A stretch of 64,000 bases of DNA from Octopus vulgaris (lineage: Eukaryota): positions 173,476,001-173,540,000 of the forward strand of contig OX597814.1 in assembly GCA_951406725.2 (NCBI GenBank), in the 5' to 3' direction. A program made the position numbers and the translations under genes. Under the pieces are notes generated by a model. It saw only the letters and a program-made list of their open reading frames with translations, ran no database searches and was not told where the DNA came from. Shown here piece by piece: positions 8,314 through 55,961 of the stretch (position 1 is the first letter of the stretch; each line of letters starts with the position of its first letter).

Positions 8314-8511
8314 TTACCATGATAGATCGTTAGCCACTACACACATTTTTTTCTCTCCTTGTTTCTCTGTTTTTTTCTGTGTCCCTTTCTGTAGAAGAGC
8401 GTAGGCTCGAAACGTAGAAGACTTTTTTGTATTCCTGAGCGTTATACTAATACATCTGTTTGTTTTGTACACCACCTGTCTTCGTCTTTTGTTTTTTTCA
8501 TAAACTCTCCC
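8314..8511 (+). mobile_element. Short 3'-terminal fragment of the Penelope-like family found at 14657-20560, inside (GTAT)n
   Basis: Aligns by eye to the reverse complement of 14660-14865 (GAAGAGCGTAGGCTCGAAACGT...TTCCTGAGCG..ATACTAATACA...TTCGTCTTTTGTTT). Confidence 0.85.
8384..8421 (+). ncRNA. Minimal type I hammerhead-like motif (variant core CUGUAGA)
   Basis: CCUUU-CUGUAGA-A-GAGC(GUAG)GCUC-GAAA-CGUA-GAAG. Stem II GAGC/GCUC, palindromic ACGU stem III, GUA triplet. Confidence 0.6.
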
Positions 8512-9504
8512 TATGTATGTATGTATGTATGTATGTATGTATGTATGTATGTATGTATGTATGTATGTATGTATGTATGTATGGGTATGTATGTATGTGT
8601 GTATATATGTATCTGTGTATATGTATGTGTGTGTGTATGTATGTGTGTATATCTATGTATGGATGCATGCATGCATGTATATTACTGAATATTTTAAAAT
8701 TAAAAATTAATAATATTTATATAAAGTAGGCCGTAAGTTTGACACTCCTGGCTTAGATGATGTAGCACTGCGGCACATTGTCATTTATCTTTTCCTTGGA
8801 ACTTGTTTTACTCATTTGGCTGTGGCCATGCTTGACGCCGCCTTGAAGGGTTTTTGTCGAACGAATCGACTCCATTACTTAATTCTTTTAAATTTGGTAC
8901 TTACTTCTGCCAAACCATTCAGTTACGGGAACATAAACAAACCACACTGGTTGTCAAATGGTCGATGGTACAAACACAAACAATCGAAATGGTCATGGCT
9001 GGAACACCTTCCATCATTTGTCTGCTTGCCCAGGGCTAGCCTGGCGATTAAACAATAAATTTAACAAAAGATTGTACGCAGGTTGCATAAATTGCAAGAA
9101 ATGACAGCCAAATCTCCTTCAAGTTACAGCCACCCGTTTTCAAAAACAGAAAGCAGTGGAATTCAAGGTATAGAAAAACACTGTTCGATCATGGCTAGAT
9201 TACCTTCGATCATGGGGCCGCTTAACCAAGCTGACCAGAAGTTAAGCTACAGAAATACTTGCTTTTTACACTTGAGAATTTGTTAAGGCATTGAATTTTA
9301 GGTAAAGTTTTCGGGATGTCTTCAGTAAAATTACGTTAACGTGGTTTTGCATCGTTTAATATAATAACTAAATTCATGAATCTATACATGGTACTTATTT
9401 CAAACACAAAAGAATGGTCCAGTGAGAGTTAAGTGTCTTTGTCGTCCTACTGCCTCATTTCAGAAAACTTGAATTCAGTATAACGAAGTAACAAAATCCT
9501 CATA

Positions 9505-13647: not shown

Positions 13648-14464
13648 CAACTTTCCTAAATCGTACAAAGGCGCATGCGCACTTTCAGTGTGTCGACGAG
13701 ACATTCGAAGCTCACGGTGGACGTTCTTAGTATCGAAGACCTATTAGCTTCCGTGGTTCAGTTGCAACGGCAACTACAACAAAAGCAAGAACAACAAAAA
13801 CAGCAAGAACAGGTACAACAGCAACTACAACAACAACAACAAAATCAACAGTTGTTGGAATTATTGCTGCAGTCAAAAAACACTTCCAGGTTCGTTTTCG
13901 GCAGACGCGGTTGCTAATTCAATTGAAAAATTTACTTATAATTCGAAAGAAGGGATTACGTTTTCTGCATACTGCAGAACTTATGAAGGAATCTTCAAGG
14001 AAGAGTGTAAAAGCTGGACGAACGGAAAGAAGATACGTCTTCTTTTAAAGAAATTATCACCAGCAGAACATGAAAGGTTTTGTAATTACATCTTGCCGAG
14101 AAAACCATCCAAAATTTGTTTCGAGGAAACAAGCTATTATCTAAAATGTTCAGTGAAAGAAGTTCACTATTTAATATTCGCCGGGAGTATTTGAATTTGA
14201 AAAAAGGGAACATTTCGTCACGTATACCGGAATCGTAAATAGAGAATGTGAAAAATTTAAACTCGACGAATTAAGCGCGGATATGTTTAAATGTTCAATC
14301 TTCGTACAAGGATTAACGGCAAGTAAAGATGCAGCGATAAGGGCTCAAATATTGACAAATCTTGAACATGATTCAAAACTTTACAAATAGTGGCTGAAGA
14401 ATGCCAAAGAATTATAAATCTACGACAGGACGCAGAAAAAATTGAAACAGATTATTCAGATATA
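13648..14464 (+). mobile_element. Ty3/Gypsy LTR retrotransposon relic, part 1 (LTR end, PBS-like site, gag)
   Basis: ACTTTCA followed by GTGTGTCGACGAG (TGGCGACGAG-like PBS). Then a Q-rich start and broken frames ADAVANSIEKFTY...EHERFCNYILP...VNRECEKFKL...MFKCSIFVQGL, typical of K02A2.6-like gag. Confidence 0.8.

Positions 14465-14619: not shown

Positions 14620-14656
<37 letters not shown>
14465..14656 (+). mobile_element. CORE-type tRNA SINE, 5' half up to its internal (AT)n (3' half at 20561-20797)
   Basis: GGAGTGGCTGTGTGGTAAGTAGC...GGGTTCAGTCCC...CTTGGGCAAGTG. An uninterrupted copy lies at 54908-55336. Confidence 0.9.
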
Positions 14657-14658
<2 letters not shown>

Positions 14659-14755
14659 CGGGAAGCTTTATGAAAATAAACAAAAGACGAAGGCAGGTGG
14701 AAAACAAACGAACAATTGTATTAGTATGGCGCTCAGGAAATATAAATAAAACAAG

Positions 14756-14793
14756 TCTTTAACGTTTCGAGCCTACGCTCTTCAACAGAAAGA
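14756..14793 (-). ncRNA. Minimal hammerhead-like motif in the 3' pLTR (variant core CUGUUGA)
   Basis: UCUUU-CUGUUGA-A-GAGC(GUAG)GCUC-GAAA-CGUU-AAAGA. Stem I UCUUU/AAAGA, stem II 4 bp, palindromic ACGU stem III. Confidence 0.65.
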
Positions 14794-15025
14794 TACACGG
14801 AGAGGGAAAAACACAGAAAGAAGGAGAGAAAAAAATGCGTGCAGTAGCTAACGAATCAACATGGCGATCTGATTTCGGCCAGAGGTCAAAGATCAAACAT
14901 GAGACGCGAGAGCGAAATAAGGGGAGATAATAGGGTTGATAAATGGGTTGAGGGACCAGCTAAAAGTGCGTGGGAGGGGTCTGGATGTGTGTATGTATAG
15001 GGTTGGTGTATGTATTAGTATGTAT

Positions 15026-15060
<35 letters not shown>

Positions 15061-15282
15061 AGAGAGTATTAGTGCGTAAGATTGGTCTGGACGTGCGTAT
15101 GTATGGGGTTGGTGTATGTATTAGTATGTATTAGTATGTATTAGTACGTATTGGTATGTATAGGTGTGTGTGTGTGTGTGAGAGAGAGTATAAGTGCGTA
15201 TGCGGGGTCTGGACGTGTGTATGTATAGGGTTGGTGTAAGTATTAGTATGTACTAGTATGTATTAGTACGTATTAGTATGTA

Positions 15283-18200
15283 TTAGTTGGTGTGTGTATT
15301 AGTATGGCACATCATATGTGATGTGATGTGATGTGTAAAGTCATGTGGTGTAGTGAGGAGAAGAGGGGGAGGGGAGAAGAGGGGGAGAGAAGGGGAGGGG
15401 AAGAAGAGGGGGAGGAGAAGGGGGAGAGGAGAGGATGGGGGAGAAGGAAGGGGATGAGGGGGATGAAGGAGGAAAGAGGGAGAGGGGGAGAGAGAAGGGG
15501 AGAGAGGGAGTGAGGGAGCAGAGGGAAGGGGAAGAGGGAGGGAGAAAGAGGGAAGAAGGGAAGGGGAGTAGGGGTGAAAGGATGAAGGACTGAAGAAGTA
15601 GGGGTCGGGGGAGAAAGGATAGGTGAGGAGGGGGAAAGGGGGGTTAGATGAGGAGGGGGGAGAGTTGAGACCAAATGGCGTATAAGAGCGAAGAGAGAAG
15701 ATTAATTCCTGTTCACGGCGCAAACGGGAATCCGGATGGCCTCTGTGTAAGGACAAACCGAACACAGATAGGTGTTGCAAGGAGTGACCGGTGGAGCGGA
15801 AATGGCGTGAGACCGGTGTGTCGTTCGCAAGGTGGATGTCACGAAGGTGTTCCGCGAACCGGTCAGCCAAGCGGCGTCCCGTTTGTCCGATGTACAAGGA
15901 ATTGCAGAGAGAGCAAGAGATGCAATAGATAATATTGCTGGAGGTGCAGGTGAAGGAGTGGATGATGGGATAGGGTCGATGGTGGGTGCTAGTGAGGCGG
16001 GTGGTGTTGGAGAGGTAAGGGCAAGTGCGGCAACGTGGGCGGGAGCAGGGGAACGAGCCGGGTTGGGAGGTAGGGTCAGGGAAGGAGCTATGGACCAAAA
16101 GGTCTCGAAGGTTGTGGGCTCGTTTGAAAGAGGGGAGGGGTCGGTTAGGGAAGAGGTGTGAAGTGGACGGGTCGGACTGGAGATGACGGAAAGCTCGAAG
16201 AATGGTGCGTTGGAGACGTAGGGTCGTGGGGTGGTAAGTGAGGGGAAAAGGGAGGCGGGAGACTACAGGGCGGGTTCGGGGAGAGAGAGCAGATACACGG
16301 TCCACGGACCGTGCTCTGGCAAGGGCGGTGTGGATAGTGGTGAGGGGGTATCCACGTAGGGTGAAGTGGTGAGCCATACGTTGAGACTGAGTCTCAAAGT
16401 CATGGTCGTCACTACAGAGCCTACGTAGACGGAGGAATTGGGAATAGGGGATGGAAAGCTTGGTGTGTTCTGGGTGGGAGGAAGAGAAGTTGAGGTATGA
16501 GTGTGAGTCTGTGTGTTTGTAGTGAATGGAGGTGGTAAGAGTGGAGTGAAGAATGCTAACCGAAATGTCGAGGAAGGAGACAGAGGTGTTGGAGATAGTG
16601 GAAGTGAAGTGGAGGGCTGGATGGAAAGATTGGACGAAAGAGAGGAAGGAATCTAGATGTTCGCGGGAGAGTGAGGTGGCACCGATAATGTCGTCAATAT
16701 AACGACCATATAGTTCAGGAGTGGGACCAGTGAAATTAGAGAATATTTGGGCCTCAACATAGCCAACGAACAGGTTCGCATAGTTGGGGCCCATTCGCGT
16801 TCCCATGGCCACTCCCGAGACCTGATGGTAGAACTCGCCCGCGAACGAGAAGCAGTTCAGAGTAAGGACAAGTTCGGCCAGACGAATGAGTGTGGAGGTG
16901 TCAGGTACAGGGTTAGAGCGGAGGTCAAGAAAGTGTCGAAGGGCCTGCAGTCCTTCGTGGTGAGGGATAACAGTATAGAGGCTTTGGATGTCCATAGTAA
17001 AAAGGATTTTGGAGGAGCCGGGAGGAAAGGAGAAAGAGTTGAAAAGCCGGAGAGCATGGTTGGTATCGTGGATGTGGGAGGGAAGAGATGCCACTAGGGG
17101 GGCAAGGACACGGTCGAGGTATTTAGAGATGAGCTCCGTGGGGCAGTTACAGGCGGAGACGATGGGGCGGCCAGGGTTGTTGGGTTTGTGGATTTTGGGG
17201 AGGAAGTAAATGGTGGGGGTACGTGGGGTTCGCACAATTAGGTTGGATGCGGTGCGGGGGAGACGGGAGGACGAGATGAGGTCTTGGACAGTAGAGGATA
17301 CCGTCTGTTGGTAGCTACGTGTGGGGTTAGAGGGCAGAGGGGAATAGAAGGAGGTGTCATTGAGTTGGCGGAAAGCCTCGGCCCTATAGAGGTCCGCGCG
17401 CCACACCACTACAGCTCCACCCTTGTCAGCCGGTTTGATGATAATGTCAGCGCGCCGTTGGAGGGAACGAAGAGCCAAGAGCTCAGCCGGGGAGATGTTG
17501 AGGCGGCGTTGGCGCCTGGAGAAGTTGAACCGCTCCAATGCACGCTGACAAGCGCCCGCGAAAAGATCCACTGCTAGGATCTGGCCAGGGGCAGGCGTCC
17601 ACGGGGATGGTCGGCGGCCCAGGCCAGTGAAGCAGTCGTCCTCTTCGTTGGGTGTGGGTGGCGAGTCGTGGTAATGCGCACCCAACCGGACACGGCGCAC
17701 AAAGCTGTGGACATCAACTCGCGTCTGGAATTCCTTACAGGATGGAGTGAGGGGGATGAAACGCAGACCCCTACCAAGGACGGAGCGTTCAGCCGCAGAG
17801 AGGGGAAGATCGGGGGGAATGGTAACAACAGACGGAAGTGGAGAAGGGGTGGATGGAATAGAAGTAGGAGGGGTGGTAGGTCTCGGGGAGGTCTGAGGGG
17901 GAGGGATTGGAGAGGTGTGTGGGGGGTGGTTGGGCGGGGCAGTAGGGTTAGGTGTAGGTGGATGGAGCCTAACGGGAGGGGAGAAGGGGTTGTAGGGAGG
18001 GGCAGTGGGGTTAGGTGTGGGTGGATGGAGCCTATCGGGAGGGGAGAAGGGTGGTGGAGGAGTTGGGGTAGTGGCGTCGGGTAGGGTGGAATGGAAGAGT
18101 GATTGGAGTTTACGAAGTTTGGTATCAGAAAGAAATTGATGGAAGAGTTGATTCAAATGGATAATGAAGCGTAGCGTGTTTGGAGCATAGAGAGGCGGCA

Positions 18201-18552
18201 GAGAGGAGAAGAAGGTGGAGAAAGCAGGAGGAAGAAGGCGGTTGATGGCATGTAGTTTGGAGAGATTGGAGCGAATGGTGGCCCGCATAAGGCGGTAAGA
18301 TGTGGTGCGGAGTATGGGTAAGATGGAAGAATCCGAGTGGAGAGCAGGGTGGAAGTGGAGGCGGAAACCTTTAGGGATGAGTCGGTGATGTAGGCAGCGG
18401 CTTAGGAAAGAGACATGGCTAGAGAAGCGGGTTTTTTAAAAAGAAGTAGAGAGAGATTAACGGACGGCTGAAGGCAATATACAGGAAGCGAACGTAGATG
18501 ATCCTTCAAACGGTGATGGAGGGTGAGGAGGTAGGACCTAGGATCCGGCATG
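15283..18552 (-). CDS. Penelope-like reverse transcriptase/GIY-YIG endonuclease polyprotein (probable ATG at 18552, one frameshift near 18435)
   Basis: IKPADKG, LPKIHK...PGRPIVS, DIQSLYT, GVAMGT, RYIDD, FLD, CSRPRCRTC zinc linker, IIYCISCSLC..YIGQT.R.L..RFAEH, GLN. The upstream frame adds RFSSHVSFLSRC...LIPKGF. Confidence 0.93.
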
Positions 18553-19269
18553 ATGGGATAGCGGAAAAAAACGTTCGAAAAAACAAAAAAAAACAAAAAA
18601 CAAAAATTATCGTATGAAAAAAATAGAAAAAAAGGATAGCGAAAAAAGGGGAAAAAACAAACGTTCAAAAAAACAAAAAAATAATAATCGTATGAAAAAA
18701 CTAGATAAGTAAGCGATAGGGGCAGAAAAGACGGGGCAAACGGAAAAGGGAAAGAAAGAAGGGAAAGAGAGAGGGGAGGCAAAAAAAGGGGGGTGCAGGC
18801 AGAGGAAACGGAGTATGGACATCCAGAGAGGGAAGAAAGACGGAAAGGAGAACAAAAATTCAGGAAAATGTGGGAAGCATGAAATGAATGTAAAAAAAGT
18901 GGTAATATAAGAAGAAATAAAAATACAACAAACGGGACAGTTTATGCGAACAAGTTCAAGGTTGAAAGTTCAAGGTGAGAAATGTGTAGACGTCGTGGTA
19001 TATTTTTTAAGGATTTCACATCAATGCAAAGTCACTTTGATCCGCGAAAGAGAGGTGCAGCCAATGGTAAGTATCCAAGAGGTAAAGAAAATCCAAGGTA
19101 GAGGTAAGTGTTGATAGTGGTATTGGTAGAATATAGGATGAAAGTGAGACCACGTGAGCGCATAATATATAACGGGAAGCTTTATGAAAATAAACAAAAG
19201 ACGAAGGCAGGTGGAAAACAAACGAACAATTGTATTAGTATGGCGCTCAGGAAATATAAATAAAACAAG

Positions 19270-19307
19270 TCTTTAACGTTTCGAGCCTACGCTCTTCAAC
19301 AGAAAGA
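19270..19307 (-). ncRNA. Second identical hammerhead-like motif in the 5' pLTR
   Basis: Identical to 14756-14793, offset 4514 bp. Confidence 0.65.
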
Positions 19308-20560
19308 TACACGGAGAGGAAAAACACAGAAAGAAGGAGAGAAAAAAAATGCGTGCAGTAGCTAACGAATCAACATGGCGATCTGATTTCGGCCAGAGGT
19401 CAAAGATCAAACATGAGACGCGAGAGCGAAATAAGGGGAGATAATAGGGTTGATAAATGGGTTGAGGGACCAGCTAAAAGTGCGTGGGAGGGGTCTGGAT
19501 GTGTGTATGTATAGGGTTGGTGTATGTATTAGTATGTATAAGGGTGTGTGTGTGTGTGTGTGTGTGTATGAGAGAGTATTAGTGCGTAAGATTGGTCTGG
19601 ACGTGCGTATGTATGGGGTTGGTGTATGTATTAGTATGTATTAGTATGTATTAGTACGTATTGGTATGTATAGGTGTGTGTGTGTGTGTGAGAGAGAGTA
19701 TAAGTGCGTATGCGGGGTCTGGACGTGTGTATGTATAGGGTTGGTGTAAGTATTAGTATGTACTAGTATGTATTAGTACGTATTAGTATGTATTAGTTGG
19801 TGTGTGTATTAGTATGGCACATCATATGTGATGTGATGTGATGTGTAAAGTCATGTGGTGTAGTGAGGAGAAGAGGGGGAGGGGAGAAGAGGGGGAGAGA
19901 AGGGGAGGGGAAGAAGAGGGGGAGGAGAAGGGGGAGAGGAGAGGATGGGGGAGAAGGAAGGGGATGAGGGGGATGAAGGAGGAAAGAGGGAGAGGGGGAG
20001 AGAGAAGGGGAGAGAGGGAGTGAGGGAGCAGAGGGAAGGGGAAGAGGGAGGGAGAAAGAGGGAAGAAGGGAAGGGGAGTAGGGGTGAAAGGATGAAGGAC
20101 TGAAGAAGTAGGGGTCGGGGGAGAAAGGATAGGTGAGGAGGGGGAAAGGGGGGTTAGATGAGGAGGGGGAAGAGTTGAGACCAAATGGCGTATAAGAGCG
20201 AAGAGAGAAGATTAATTCCTCTTCACGGCGCAAACGGGAATCCGGATGGCCTCTGTGTAAGGACAAACCGAACACAGATAGGTGTTGCAAGGAGTGACCG
20301 GTGGAGCGGAAATGGCGTGAGACCGGTGTGTCGTTCGCAAGGTGGATGTCACGAAGGTGTTCCGCGAACCGGTCAGCCAAGCGGCGTCCCGTTTGTCCGA
20401 TGTACAAGGAATTGCAGAGAGAGCAAGAGATGCAATAGATAATATTGCTGGAGGTGCAGGTGAAGGAGTGGATGATGGGATAGGGTCGATGGTGGGTGCT
20501 AGTGAGGCGGGTGGTGTTGGAGAGGTAAGGGCAAGTGCGGCAACGTGGGCGGGAGCAGGG

Positions 20561-20797
20561 ATATATATGTATGCGTGTGTGTGTTTGTGTGTCTGTGTTT
20601 GTCCCCCTAGCATTGCTTGACAACCGATGCTGCTGTGTTTACGTCCCCGTCACTTAGCGGTTCGGCAAAAAGAGACCGATAGAATAAGTACTGGGCTTAC
20701 AAAGAATAAGTCGCGGGGTCGATTTGCTCGACTAAAAGGCGGTGCTCCAGCATGGCCGCAGTCAAATGACTGAAACAAGTAAAAGAGTAAAGAGTAA
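20561..20797 (+). mobile_element. 3' half of the CORE-type SINE begun at 14465
   Basis: (AT)(GT) tract, then TTTGTCCCCC...CTTAGCGGTTCGGCAAAAGAGACCG...CAAGTAAAAGAGTAAAGAGT tail. Confidence 0.9.
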
Positions 20798-21043: not shown

Positions 21044-22355
21044 GGATCTTTTCTATTCTGAAGCCAGGACCACAGATCTTTCTACTTAACTAAATAATCT
21101 GAAACTTCGTATGCTGATAGAGTCTAGCAAAACAAGACACAGGTTGGAACTAGTTTATTTGAGAAAAATCTATTTTATGACTTTAATCGTAGATTAAAAC
21201 TGCGAATTTTAACCAATCAGATTGTTTGTTTTCATGTGTAAAACTTGACTGCATTCTATTAGTGTGACGTAGAAAGCGCTTTTGTGACGTACTAACGTTC
21301 GGAAAACTGTAAACAAACACGGCAGACGAAATACGGCTACGCATTTCGCCCGGCGTGCTAACGTTTCTGCCAGCTCTTTGCTTTTTTAATATTAAATTTC
21401 GGCGAAGTTTCGCTTGTCGTAGCACAAGTTTTCCGTCGATTTCCGTAAAAAACTTTTATTTTTTTACATAAGTAATGAGAGCGAAAGAGATTAAGAGGAA
21501 GCGATTTTATGACGAGGGAAGTTTGTCTTTGAAGTTACCGTCTAGGGGAAGCATTGATGTACATGTGTGTGTGTGTGTGTGTTTGATGGGGTGTGGGAGA
21601 CAGTATGTTGTGTAAGTGAAGTGCTTCTGTTAGTGTGTGTGAAGAGACAGAGAGAGTAATGTGTGAAAGAGAGAGATAACTGAAATTTTTTTACTCGGTG
21701 TATGTGTATATGTATGTCTGCATGTATGTGTGTGTGTGTGTATGTATCTATGTATGTATGGCCGATTCATCGTAATTACGATGAATCGGCCATACATACA
21801 TACACACACACACATACATACACACACACACATACTTACACATACATACACACACACATACATGCAGACATACATATACACATACACCGAGTAAAAAATT
21901 TCAGTTATCTCTCTCTTTCAATCATTACTCTCTCTGTCTCTTCACACACACTAACAGAAGCACTTCACTTACACAACATACTGTCTCCCACACCCCATCA
22001 AACACACACACACACACACACACATGTACATCAATGCTTCCCCTAGACGGTAACTTCAAAGACAAACTTTTGTTATTAGAAGGTGGCTGACTATAGCTTG
22101 TTTACATTTAAGATGTCTAATACGTCACGAAATTGGTGGTCGAGACGGAGTAAATAAAATAAAGCCGAATGACGGAATATCATTGGTTAAAATTCTAATT
22201 ATTAAACAACGTTAAACTTAGAAGTTACAATTCCGTTTTCATTCTGGTTTACAATTAAGTTTACGTTTGACACATTCTACCAGTATACGAAGTTTCAAAT
22301 TGTTTGGTTCAGTAGGAAAAATTTGAAAAAACTGGCTTCAGAATAGAAAAGATCC
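21044..22355. mobile_element. Non-autonomous TIR DNA element (Merlin- or Mutator-like) with a large internal palindrome
   Basis: Perfect 24-bp TIR GGATCTTTTCTATTCTGAAGCCAG (21044-21067 and 22332-22355). 8-bp TSD AAAAAATT on both sides. Interrupts the Gypsy gag-protease junction. Confidence 0.88.
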
Positions 22356-54907: not shown

Positions 54908-55085
54908 GGGCGCAGGAGTGGCTGTGTGGTAAGTAGCTTGCTAACCAACCACATGGTTTCGGGTTTAGTCCCACCGCGTGGCACCTTGAGCAAGTGTCTT
55001 CTACTATAGCCTCGGGCTGACCAAAGCCTTGTGAGTGGATTTGATAGACGGAAACTGAAAGAAGCCTGTCGTATATATGTATACC

Positions 55086-55131
<46 letters not shown>

Positions 55132-55336
55132 TGTGTTTGTCCCCCCCAACATCGCTTGACAGCCGATGCTGGTGTGTTTACGTCCCCGTAACTTAGCGGT
55201 TCGGCAAAAGAGACCGATAGAATAAGTACTAGGCTTACAAAGAATAAGTCCTTGGCGTCGATTTGCAAGACTAAAGGCGGTGCTCCAGCATGGCCGCAGT
55301 CAAAAGACTGAAGCAAGTAAAAGAGTGAAAGAGTAA
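54908..55336 (+). mobile_element. Complete CORE-type SINE with internal (AT)n(GT)n
   Basis: A/B boxes, ACCTTGAGCAAGTG core, internal microsatellite, (GTAAAAGA)n tail. Confidence 0.92.
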
Positions 55337-55961
55337 TAGTAAAGATTCCTTCACTCTATAGTATATTCTGTCGTTATTATTACGAGTGAGGGTGGGGAAT
55401 TGGCAGAATTGAAATTGAATCAGACAAAATGCCTTACGGTATTTCTTCCAATTGTTTGGGATCTGAGTTCCAATCCAGGTGATGTAAACTTTACCTTTCA
55501 TCCCTGCAGGTCTATAAAATGAAGAAATCGATTTAACCGACGACTAACCGACTCCTCTGAAATTTCAGCTTTTTTTGCCTATGGGAAAAGCAATTATAAC
55601 TCTAACGTTTGTGTATCTTTATTACATTGACTGCCGGGTAAGAAAAGATAAATAAGTAGCAATGCAAGCTCGTTGACTTTGTTTCAGAGATACACTTTAT
55701 CTACGATCTTTTGTCAGGTGCTAAATGAGCAGGTGTGCTGGTTGCAAAAGAATTTTGTTCAGACCATTACCTTCAAGTGTTATAGTCTTCGAAATGATTT
55801 TATAAAGGAGGGTGGTGCATGCCATAAGTAACTTCGCAAACGGCTTCGTAATTGTTTTCTATGGCATCAAAAGCGGTAACTTAATATATGGTGTATGTAT
55901 ATAAATGAATACACACACACACATATATATATATATGTACGTATGTATGTATCCATGGATG

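What the first reader, a model, noticed from the sequence alone, without database searches (positions are those of the whole stretch)
14756..19307. Paired variant hammerheads 4514 nt apart could excise a unit-length element RNA
Seen: identical motifs CUGUUGA-A-GAGC(GUAG)GCUC-GAAACGUU with UCUUU/AAAGA stem I in both pLTRs. Known: PLE pLTRs carry minimal type I hammerheads whose palindromic stem III needs dimerisation, and A6 is normally invariant. Inference: the two copies in one transcript could pair through ACGU and cut out a 4.5-kb monomer (5' UTR + ORF + 3' UTR), possibly circularisable. Alternatively the A6U/GUU variant is a non-cleaving protein-recognition structure.
Basis: partly seen in the sequence, partly recalled or inferred. 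Interest (0 to 1): 0.8.

Follow-up and report, generated by a model that had tools for sequence, protein, structure and literature searches.

The report
U6 hammerhead of a Penelope retrotransposon
Both end repeats of a Penelope-type jumping gene carry the small hammerhead RNA motif these elements are known for, but with U in place of a normally fixed A, a change shared by about nineteen thousand copies in this genome, and the copies show traces of being copied round and round from one template, likely an RNA circle that these hammerheads would cut out and close.

Summary
Observation confirmed: identical 38-nt minimal type I hammerheads at 14756-14793 and 19270-19307 (minus strand), in the pLTRs of an RT + GIY-YIG Penelope-like element. 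U6 is the unusual part. It is no private decay: 19,320 copies carry it against 5,239 with A6, and across subfamilies the other core letters never change while N7 and N17 do. I found no natural U6 core in the papers I could read. Inserted copies do not come from a linear cut-out monomer: none of 82 long copies starts at the cut. They do look copied more than once round one template: both pLTRs share locus-private variants on both sides of the cut, deleted minis repeat their own junction, and a 5' stop zone of first-pass copies is absent on the second pass. A hammerhead-closed circle fits best, but cleavage is untested, A6 changes usually cripple hammerheads, and the unaided dimer is predicted unstable. 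This window's copy is frameshifted. The scan noted PLE hammerheads before on other DNA, not U6. New variant of a known kind; 0.5.

The parts
14756..14793 (-). Minimal type I hammerhead, U6 core, 3' pLTR copy; predicted cut between 14761 and 14760
19270..19307 (-). Identical hammerhead, 5' pLTR copy; predicted cut between 19275 and 19274
14651..16050 (-). 3' pLTR (end of the frame, 3' UTR, hammerhead, 110-nt tail ending in the TA target)
19165..20560 (-). 5' pLTR: 5'-truncated second-pass copy of the unit's last 1.4 kb, 99.4% identical to the 3' pLTR
18552..19164 (-). 5' non-coding region; its first 240-300 nt are kept in most mini elements
18402..18551 (-). First AUG and 49-codon frame; by eye it resembles the N-terminus of homologues, and it is out of frame with the long frame in this copy
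18432..18437 (-). A run one base shorter than in most sibling copies (frameshift or assembly error)
15283..18435 (-). Long frame: RT (DKG at 17427, YIDD at 16701), CX4CxxC linker at 16047, GIY-YIG endonuclease (IIY at 15933, YIG at 15894), low-complexity tail
19358..19394 (-). Zone where short solo copies of the family start (peak at 19382; 14868 in the 3' pLTR): candidate 5' end of an uncut linear RNA
14623..14657 (.). (TA)n target at the 3' end; a TA run also forms the 5' junction at 20561-20569; the flanks match one continuous older repeat at 54914-55338
8385..8420 (+). Hammerhead of a solo short copy of a sister subfamily (U6, A7, A17)

Best explanation
The two motifs are the conserved minimal hammerheads of a Neptune/Nematis-type Penelope-like element whose lineage fixed U at core position 6, and they likely remain slow, probably protein-assisted ribozymes that would cut a share of transcripts at both pLTRs, giving a 4514-nt unit that would be closed into a circle and copied more than once round by the element's reverse transcriptase. 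Shown: the anatomy; the lineage-wide U6 with the hammerhead pattern of fixed and free positions; the fixed 3' end 110 nt past the cut; the copying of both pLTRs from one template; minis with repeated junctions. Inferred: transcription starts about 108 nt upstream of the cut in the 5' pLTR; uncut linear RNA yields most of the short solo copies; reverse transcription starts inside the RNA at the unit junction, as shown for another PLE; a seamless join somewhere in the 218 nt shared by both RNA ends makes the circle, and the hammerhead cut is the only known processing site there; the dimer partner may be the cis copy or any other transcript of the family. Untested: cleavage, ligation, the circle itself.
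For: Constraint: in 100 copies found by stem II only, 94 have U6, N7 takes all four letters and N17 is A 80, U 19, G 1. On their tree 0 of 10 core columns change on branches with 3 or more copies, against 43 of 82 flank columns (Fisher p 0.0014); N7 changes 5 times and N17 twice. G17, which breaks the NUH rule, is 178 of 19,320, the level of stray changes at neighbouring A positions, while C17 is 251. Recent activity with U6: 16 of 96 long loci keep a frame of 940 aa or more; 203 of 205 intact motifs in 116 stretches have U6. One template copied twice: in 86 loci subfamily variants sit in both pLTRs in 66 of 67 cases, and 13 of 95 locus-private variants sit in both, upstream (10 of 65) and downstream (3 of 30) of the cut alike (p 0.75). 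Thirteen of 76 junction loci are internally deleted minis; 6 repeat their own deletion junction, one in five units 492-493 nt apart that differ by at most 1 column. No RNA end on the second pass: 12 of 24 first-pass copies stop in a 45-nt zone, 0 of 75 second-pass copies do (p 3e-9; youngest subfamily only 5 of 13 vs 0 of 75, p 3e-5). Print: a natural A6C hammerhead is slow but active (PMC3088659 passages; PMC7151607 results and discussion); the Anolis PLE hammerhead cuts only with its protein and its RT starts internally (PMC11167929 main text).
Against: No cleavage was measured. Mutations in the CUGA turn gave low activity with no rescue in a full pairwise scan of another hammerhead (PMC9901934 passages). 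The double-hammerhead fold is 6.7 kcal/mol less stable than two collapsed monomers. 5' ends at the cut are not enriched: in the first 100 listed lines 9-12 loci start at the cut and 14 at an equivalent TA microhomology in loop II (count by eye); exact-junction counts are 21 at the cut, 12 six bases downstream, 2 six bases upstream and 138 at the upstream zone, among 3,126 young copies. In the Anolis element catalytic mutants did not change insertion in vitro and no reads ended at the cut. The circle's join could not be located: no usable source-daughter pair was found. U6 staying fixed is one column, and 39 of 82 flank columns stayed fixed too. Stem II does not covary within the U6 lineage. 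Multi-unit arrays exist (2 among the loci fetched) and could feed read-through templates.
Confidence: 0.45

Rival explanations
1. The U6 motif no longer cuts. It is kept as a fold that the element's protein recognises, and the matching pLTRs come from uncut read-through RNA of multi-unit arrays, from homologous strand transfer or from gene conversion.
For: A6 is in all 56 published PLE hammerheads of Fig. S3 and CUGA mutants are poor. No footprint of cut ends. Most short copies start upstream of the motif, so their templates were uncut. Arrays of full units exist. Naiad PLEs spread without canonical hammerheads (PMC8557442 passages).
Against: The positions left free are those free in active hammerheads (N7; N17 except G). 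A strand transfer at a fixed RNA 5' end predicts stops there on the second pass, and there are 0 of 75. Each of 13 private variants shared by two pLTRs would need its own array, and none of them occurs in the 2 arrays seen. The same loci keep many one-sided mutations, which argues against wholesale conversion.
Confidence: 0.3
2. The motif cuts, but only to trim or regulate the RNA (new 5' end, decay of read-through transcripts). The reiterated template is a circle or jump closed at some other point of the shared 218 nt, for example RNA 5' end to 3' end in the minis.
For: Mini junction acceptors cluster in the same zone as short-copy 5' ends (5 of 13 at one position), as if RNA ends were joined there. 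The join of the full-length template is not located.
Against: Full-length copies run seamlessly through that zone, which end-to-end joining at the RNA start would not give. Mini junctions are not GT-AG, so back-splicing has no support.
Confidence: 0.17
3. One reading: both hammerheads cut, and the linear 4514-nt monomer is the transposition template.
For: 21 young copies begin at the cut with a TA junction (8 of the 10 inspected are clean).
Against: 0 of 82 long copies start at the cut, 78 start upstream of the hammerhead, and 77 of 86 end 110 nt past the cut. The 21 are no more than microhomology gives.
Confidence: 0.03

Closest known systems
Minimal hammerheads (min-HHR) in pLTRs of metazoan Penelope-like elements (Cervera and de la Pena 2014, PMC4209133; Lunse et al. 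2017 known to me only from a reference list and a review passage)
   Same: Type I, one per pLTR, no loop 3, palindromic ACGU, extra base between A9 and G10.1, G10.1-C11.1 pair, short stem I, GUU/GUA cut site; proposed dimer cleavage and circular template.
   Different: U at position 6 (all 56 aligned examples have A; the core variant described there is U3-A8); 4-bp stem II; very high copy number; genomic footprints of reiterated copying are measured here.
Natural A6C hammerhead of phage Bcep176 (PMC3088659, PMC7151607)
   Same: Natural change at core position 6.
   Different: C, not U; one phage example against a lineage of about 19,000 copies; that one was assayed (slow in Mg2+, better in Mn2+), this one was not.
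Poseidon element PAc of Anolis (Frangieh et al. 2024, PMC11167929)
   Same: C-terminal GIY-YIG PLE in partial tandem, AT-rich targets, fixed end downstream of the hammerhead.
   Different: In PAc the hammerhead overlaps the start codon; here it lies about 720 nt upstream of the first AUG, and the protein has the CX4CxxC linker that Poseidon lacks.
Non-LTR retrozymes (PMC7229834; bioRxiv 10.64898/2026.07.22.740005)
   Same: Tandem repeats of a few hundred nt with a type I hammerhead per unit, related to PLE pLTRs.
   Different: The minis here are direct deletion products of an identifiable active PLE, 98-99% identical to it, with many independent junctions and a U6 minimal core; classic retrozymes carry canonical, efficient hammerheads with shown circular RNA.

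Membership tests
Penelope-like element, EN+ with C-terminal endonuclease | Single frame with RT followed by GIY-YIG | tested here: met
   this copy is frameshifted near its start, 16 of 96 long loci are open for 940 aa or more
Penelope-like element, EN+ with C-terminal endonuclease | Partial tandem forming pLTRs, 5'-truncated upstream copy | tested here: met
Neptune/Nematis clades | CX2-5CxxC linker between RT and EN | tested here: met
   CSRPRCRTC at residue 797; feature named in PMC8557442
Neptune clade as against Nematis | Placement in an RT tree with named references | not tested
   homologues carry no clade names; no reference set was built
Minimal PLE hammerhead (min-HHR) | Stem I, stem II with G10.1-C11.1, extra base after A9, palindromic 15.1-16.1 stretch | tested here: met
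Minimal PLE hammerhead (min-HHR) | Core C3 U4 G5, G8 A9, G12 A13 A14, A15.1, U16.1, H17 kept under selection | tested here: met
   0 of 10 columns change on internal branches; G17 at 0.9%
Minimal PLE hammerhead (min-HHR) | A at position 6 (CUGANGA consensus) | tested here: not met
   U6 here and in 19,320 of 25,212 pattern matches; so filed as a variant, not a consensus member
Minimal PLE hammerhead (min-HHR) | Compensatory changes in the stems | tested here: inconclusive
   stems I and II are nearly fixed within the U6 lineage; one U6 motif with another 5-bp stem I in one outside record
Hammerhead ribozyme (catalytic) | Site-specific self-cleavage after N17 | not testable with these tools
   only contigs, which show no RNA ends, were on offer
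Non-LTR retrozyme (the mini elements) | Non-coding tandem repeats with a type I hammerhead in each unit | tested here: met
   L344: five motifs 492-493 nt apart; L296, L299, L305: two each
Non-LTR retrozyme (the mini elements) | Expressed as circular RNA | not testable with these tools
   no suitable RNA data

The most novel reading that the evidence does not exclude
This lineage runs an autonomous retrotransposon on a 4.5-kb circular RNA cut and closed at a hammerhead that has lost a supposedly invariant catalytic-core base, the element's own protein making up for it; the same cycle keeps spawning new 450-560-nt retrozymes. [quoted passage not shown]
Probability: 0.35. Interest if true: 0.75.

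Novelty: new variant of a known kind. Interest (0 to 1): 0.5.

Why it matters
What PLE hammerheads do is an open question: the circle model dates from 2014 and the one in vitro system found cleavage dispensable. This family offers natural A6 and U6 sister lineages, intact donors, and minis of under 600 nt whose circles would be easy to detect, so both questions (does a U6 core cut; is the template a circle joined at the cut) can be tested directly. It also shows that the commonest minimal hammerhead-like motif of this genome escapes the standard descriptor and Rfam.

Tried and rejected
(1) A second U6 family with a different stem II: its CUGUUGA lies inside a helix of another repeat; rejected. 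(2) A hard ceiling on pLTR length near 1.4 kb (40 loci): with 76 more loci pLTRs reach 2,146 nt and full arrays occur; rejected. (3) Shared private variants only upstream of the cut (4 of 11 vs 0 of 14), which would have placed a strand transfer at the cut: gone in 86 loci (p 0.75). (4) U6 as a latch that locks the monomer: the collapsed fold is as strong in the A6/C7 version (-10.5 vs -10.2 kcal/mol); rejected. The open-core probabilities came from a structure string of wrong length and were redone. (5) Splicing as the source of mini junctions: no GT-AG. (6) A peak of 5' ends at the cut: not above microhomology controls. (7) Direction of the A6/U6 change: A6 copies with the same loop II fall in an unresolved basal fork, so one A-to-U change is likely (all outgroups have A) but not shown. 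(8) RNA: no RNA holder listed; four runs guessed to be RNA are contigs only and show no ends; one holds a back-joint equal to a mini junction, which DNA minis would also give; nothing is concluded on expression. (9) Print searches for the variant: 'hammerhead + A6U + cleavage', literal core strings, 'core variants/A6C', Penelope + Neptune/octopus/cephalopod + hammerhead found no natural U6 core; a 2026 octopus repeat paper has no 'hammerhead' or 'ribozyme' in its main text. Lunse 2017 and Arkhipova 2017 are not held and may describe such variants; figure images and bioRxiv supplements were not seen. (10) No earlier notes of the scan on this genome or on look-alike sequence. Rows dropped: arrays and minis were left out; columns u4340-4375 (a T/C run) were masked; L371 (mis-aligned to a neighbour) was left out.
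Full report
Observation. On the minus strand 14756-14793 and 19270-19307 read identically UCUUU-CUGUUGA-A-GAGC(GUAG)GCUC-GAA-ACGU-U-AAAGA, 4514 bases apart. They lie in direct repeats at 14651-16050 and 19165-20560 that are 99.4% identical. Between them is a 1050-codon stop-to-stop frame with an RT domain, a CX4CxxC linker and a GIY-YIG domain; 756 relatives were found, the best at 55-59% identity. This is an EN+ Penelope-like element (PLE) of Neptune/Nematis type in partial tandem, inserted in (TA)n inside an older repeat. Below, u1 is 19164 and u4514 is 14651; the predicted cut follows u4404. The host genome has 2.8 Gb; that it is an octopus is my guess from recall and nothing rests on it.

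This copy is probably not autonomous. From the first AUG (18551) the frame closes after 49 codons; the A run at 18432-18437 is one base shorter than in 18 of 25 close siblings, and all 4 runs laid have the longer run. An assembly error is possible. Sixteen of 96 long loci with that AUG are open for 940 aa or more, so the family was recently active.

What is already in print. Cervera and de la Pena 2014 (PMC4209133; I read parts 1-2 of 4 of the text and parts 1-2 of 3 of the supplement) describe minimal hammerheads in both pLTRs of PLEs, show low cleavage of dimers, and propose cleavage, ligation to a circle and more-than-unit reverse transcription. Fifteen of their 56 aligned motifs end GAAACGUU (count by eye), so GUU is ordinary. 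All 56 have A6, though their descriptor fixed the core. Frangieh 2024 (PMC11167929, parts 1-2 of 4) found that the Anolis PLE hammerhead cuts only with the protein, that catalytic mutants do not alter insertion in vitro, and that RT starts inside the RNA downstream of the hammerhead. A natural A6C hammerhead is slow in Mg2+ and better in Mn2+ (PMC3088659 passages; PMC7151607 parts 1-2 of 4). A pairwise scan found CUGA-turn mutants poorly active and not rescuable (PMC9901934 passages). Searches for a natural U6 core found none; Lunse 2017 could not be read.

U6 is a lineage trait. With stem II fixed, the genome has 25,212 motifs (control 0): 19,320 U6 and 5,239 A6; relaxing stem II raises A6 to 7,947. 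A search anchored on stem II and loop only gave 25,523 matches (control 16). In the first 100, position 6 is U 94, A 3, C 3; N7 is U 39, A 22, C 22, G 17; N17 is A 80, U 19, G 1; most other changes are at CpG. On a tree of these 100, none of 10 core columns changes on a branch with 3 or more copies, against 43 of 82 flank columns (p 0.0014); N7 changes 5 times, N17 twice (A to U), U6 never. G17 is 178 and C17 251 of 19,320. This is the pattern of freedom of an active hammerhead, apart from position 6. It shows selection on the motif, not catalysis. A6 families with a 3-nt loop II form a supported sister clade; A6 copies with the same loop as U6 sit in an unresolved basal fork. One U6 motif with a different 5-bp stem I was found in one metagenome record; a single copy may be decay. 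Rfam does not detect the motif.

What the insertions say about the template. I fetched 39 long copies found by the start of the frame and 76 stretches from the first 100 of 147 exact pLTR/5'-region junctions. Leaving out arrays and minis, 86 loci have a body: 77 end at u4514, 110 nt past the cut; 82 have an upstream pLTR, of which 78 start upstream of the hammerhead and none within u4400-4410. A linear cut-out monomer is therefore not what inserts. In 86 loci, subfamily variants are in both pLTRs in 66 of 67 cases, and 13 of 95 locus-private variants are in both, 10 of 65 upstream and 3 of 30 downstream of the cut (p 0.75). So each insertion's pLTRs were copied from one stretch of template on both sides of the cut. 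Thirteen of the 76 stretches are minis that join the first 90-300 nt of the unit to its last 170-290 nt; the deletion never removes the hammerhead, though the search did not ask for it, and 6 repeat their own junction upstream, L344 in five near-identical units ending at u4514. Their junctions are not splice sites.

Short copies behave differently. Of 30 copies anchored downstream of the cut (5,733 in the genome), 12 of the 24 that reach u4330 stop in u4285-4330, whereas 0 of 75 second-pass pLTRs stop there (p 3e-9; youngest subfamily alone 5 of 13, p 3e-5); 138 young copies start at one position of the zone, and older subfamilies show the same pile-up by eye. A barrier in the sequence would act on both passes; a physical RNA 5' end acts only on linear RNA. 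Hence short copies likely come from uncut linear transcripts that start about 108 nt upstream of the cut, and long wrap-around copies from a template without an end there. 5' ends at the cut itself are not enriched over microhomology controls.

Mechanism. A transcript from the 5' pLTR holds u4297-4514 at both ends. A template that is continuous across u4514/u1 and across u4297 and gives identical pLTRs is most simply a one-unit circle joined seamlessly inside those 218 nt; the hammerhead cut is the only known processing site there (inference). Cleavage is likely slow and protein-aided: the double-hammerhead fold is -13.7 kcal/mol against -20.4 for two collapsed monomers, and the partner need not be the copy 4.5 kb away, since thousands of copies share ACGU and a U/A stem I. 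I put this at 0.45. The main rival (0.3) is a non-cutting fold with read-through of arrays, strand transfer or gene conversion; two arrays were seen, but none of the 13 shared private variants occurs in them. A third (0.17) has cutting and circle closure at different sites. The join could not be located, and RNA data gave contigs only.

Verdict. A known kind of element with a known kind of motif and a published hypothesis; the new parts are a lineage-wide U6 core and genomic footprints of reiterated copying, with retrozyme-like minis born from the element (a link argued by phylogeny in bioRxiv 10.64898/2026.07.22.740005, parts 1-3 of 5 read). New variant of a known kind, interest 0.5; 0.75 if U6 cleavage and the circle are shown.

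Noticed in passing
L109, L110, L114-L116, L118, L121, L126-L128, L130, L131, L135 (around base 1400-1550 of each): A separate repeat family whose end holds several nested hammerhead-like cores (two CUGANGA boxes, a long helix, a GAA-CCAC-GAAAC-GUGG hairpin); not classified.
   Followed up: partly
L344 (G000:C8:18595900-18604800); also L296, L299, L305, L309, L360: Retrozyme-like tandem minis of 447-552 nt derived from this element by internal deletion; L296 and L309 share breakpoints on different places of one chromosome.
   Followed up: yes
L282/L337 and L357/L358: Head-to-tail arrays of two or more full 4.5-kb units.
   Followed up: partly
window 14727-14737 (-) and 19241-19251 (-): A YYGAGCG stretch about 25 nt downstream of the cut is kept in both A6 and U6 lineages and could pair with the 3' strand of stem II, an alternative fold.
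   Followed up: no
window 15283-15640 (-): The frame runs about 120 low-complexity residues past the point where homologues end.
   Followed up: no
window 8327-8546 (+): Solo short copy of an older sister subfamily with a U6/A7/A17 motif, starting in the same upstream zone.
   Followed up: yes
L361:401-429 (-): One U6 minimal hammerhead with a different stem I and C17 in a metagenome record with no similarity to this element's flanks; no PLE frame within 400 bases.
   Followed up: partly
window 13660-14420 (+): Broken frames that look like a gag-like gene of an LTR retrotransposon (recalled resemblance, no call).
   Followed up: no
window 21584-22000: Long inverted repeat (108-nt arms, 98%) around a palindromic centre.
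   Followed up: no
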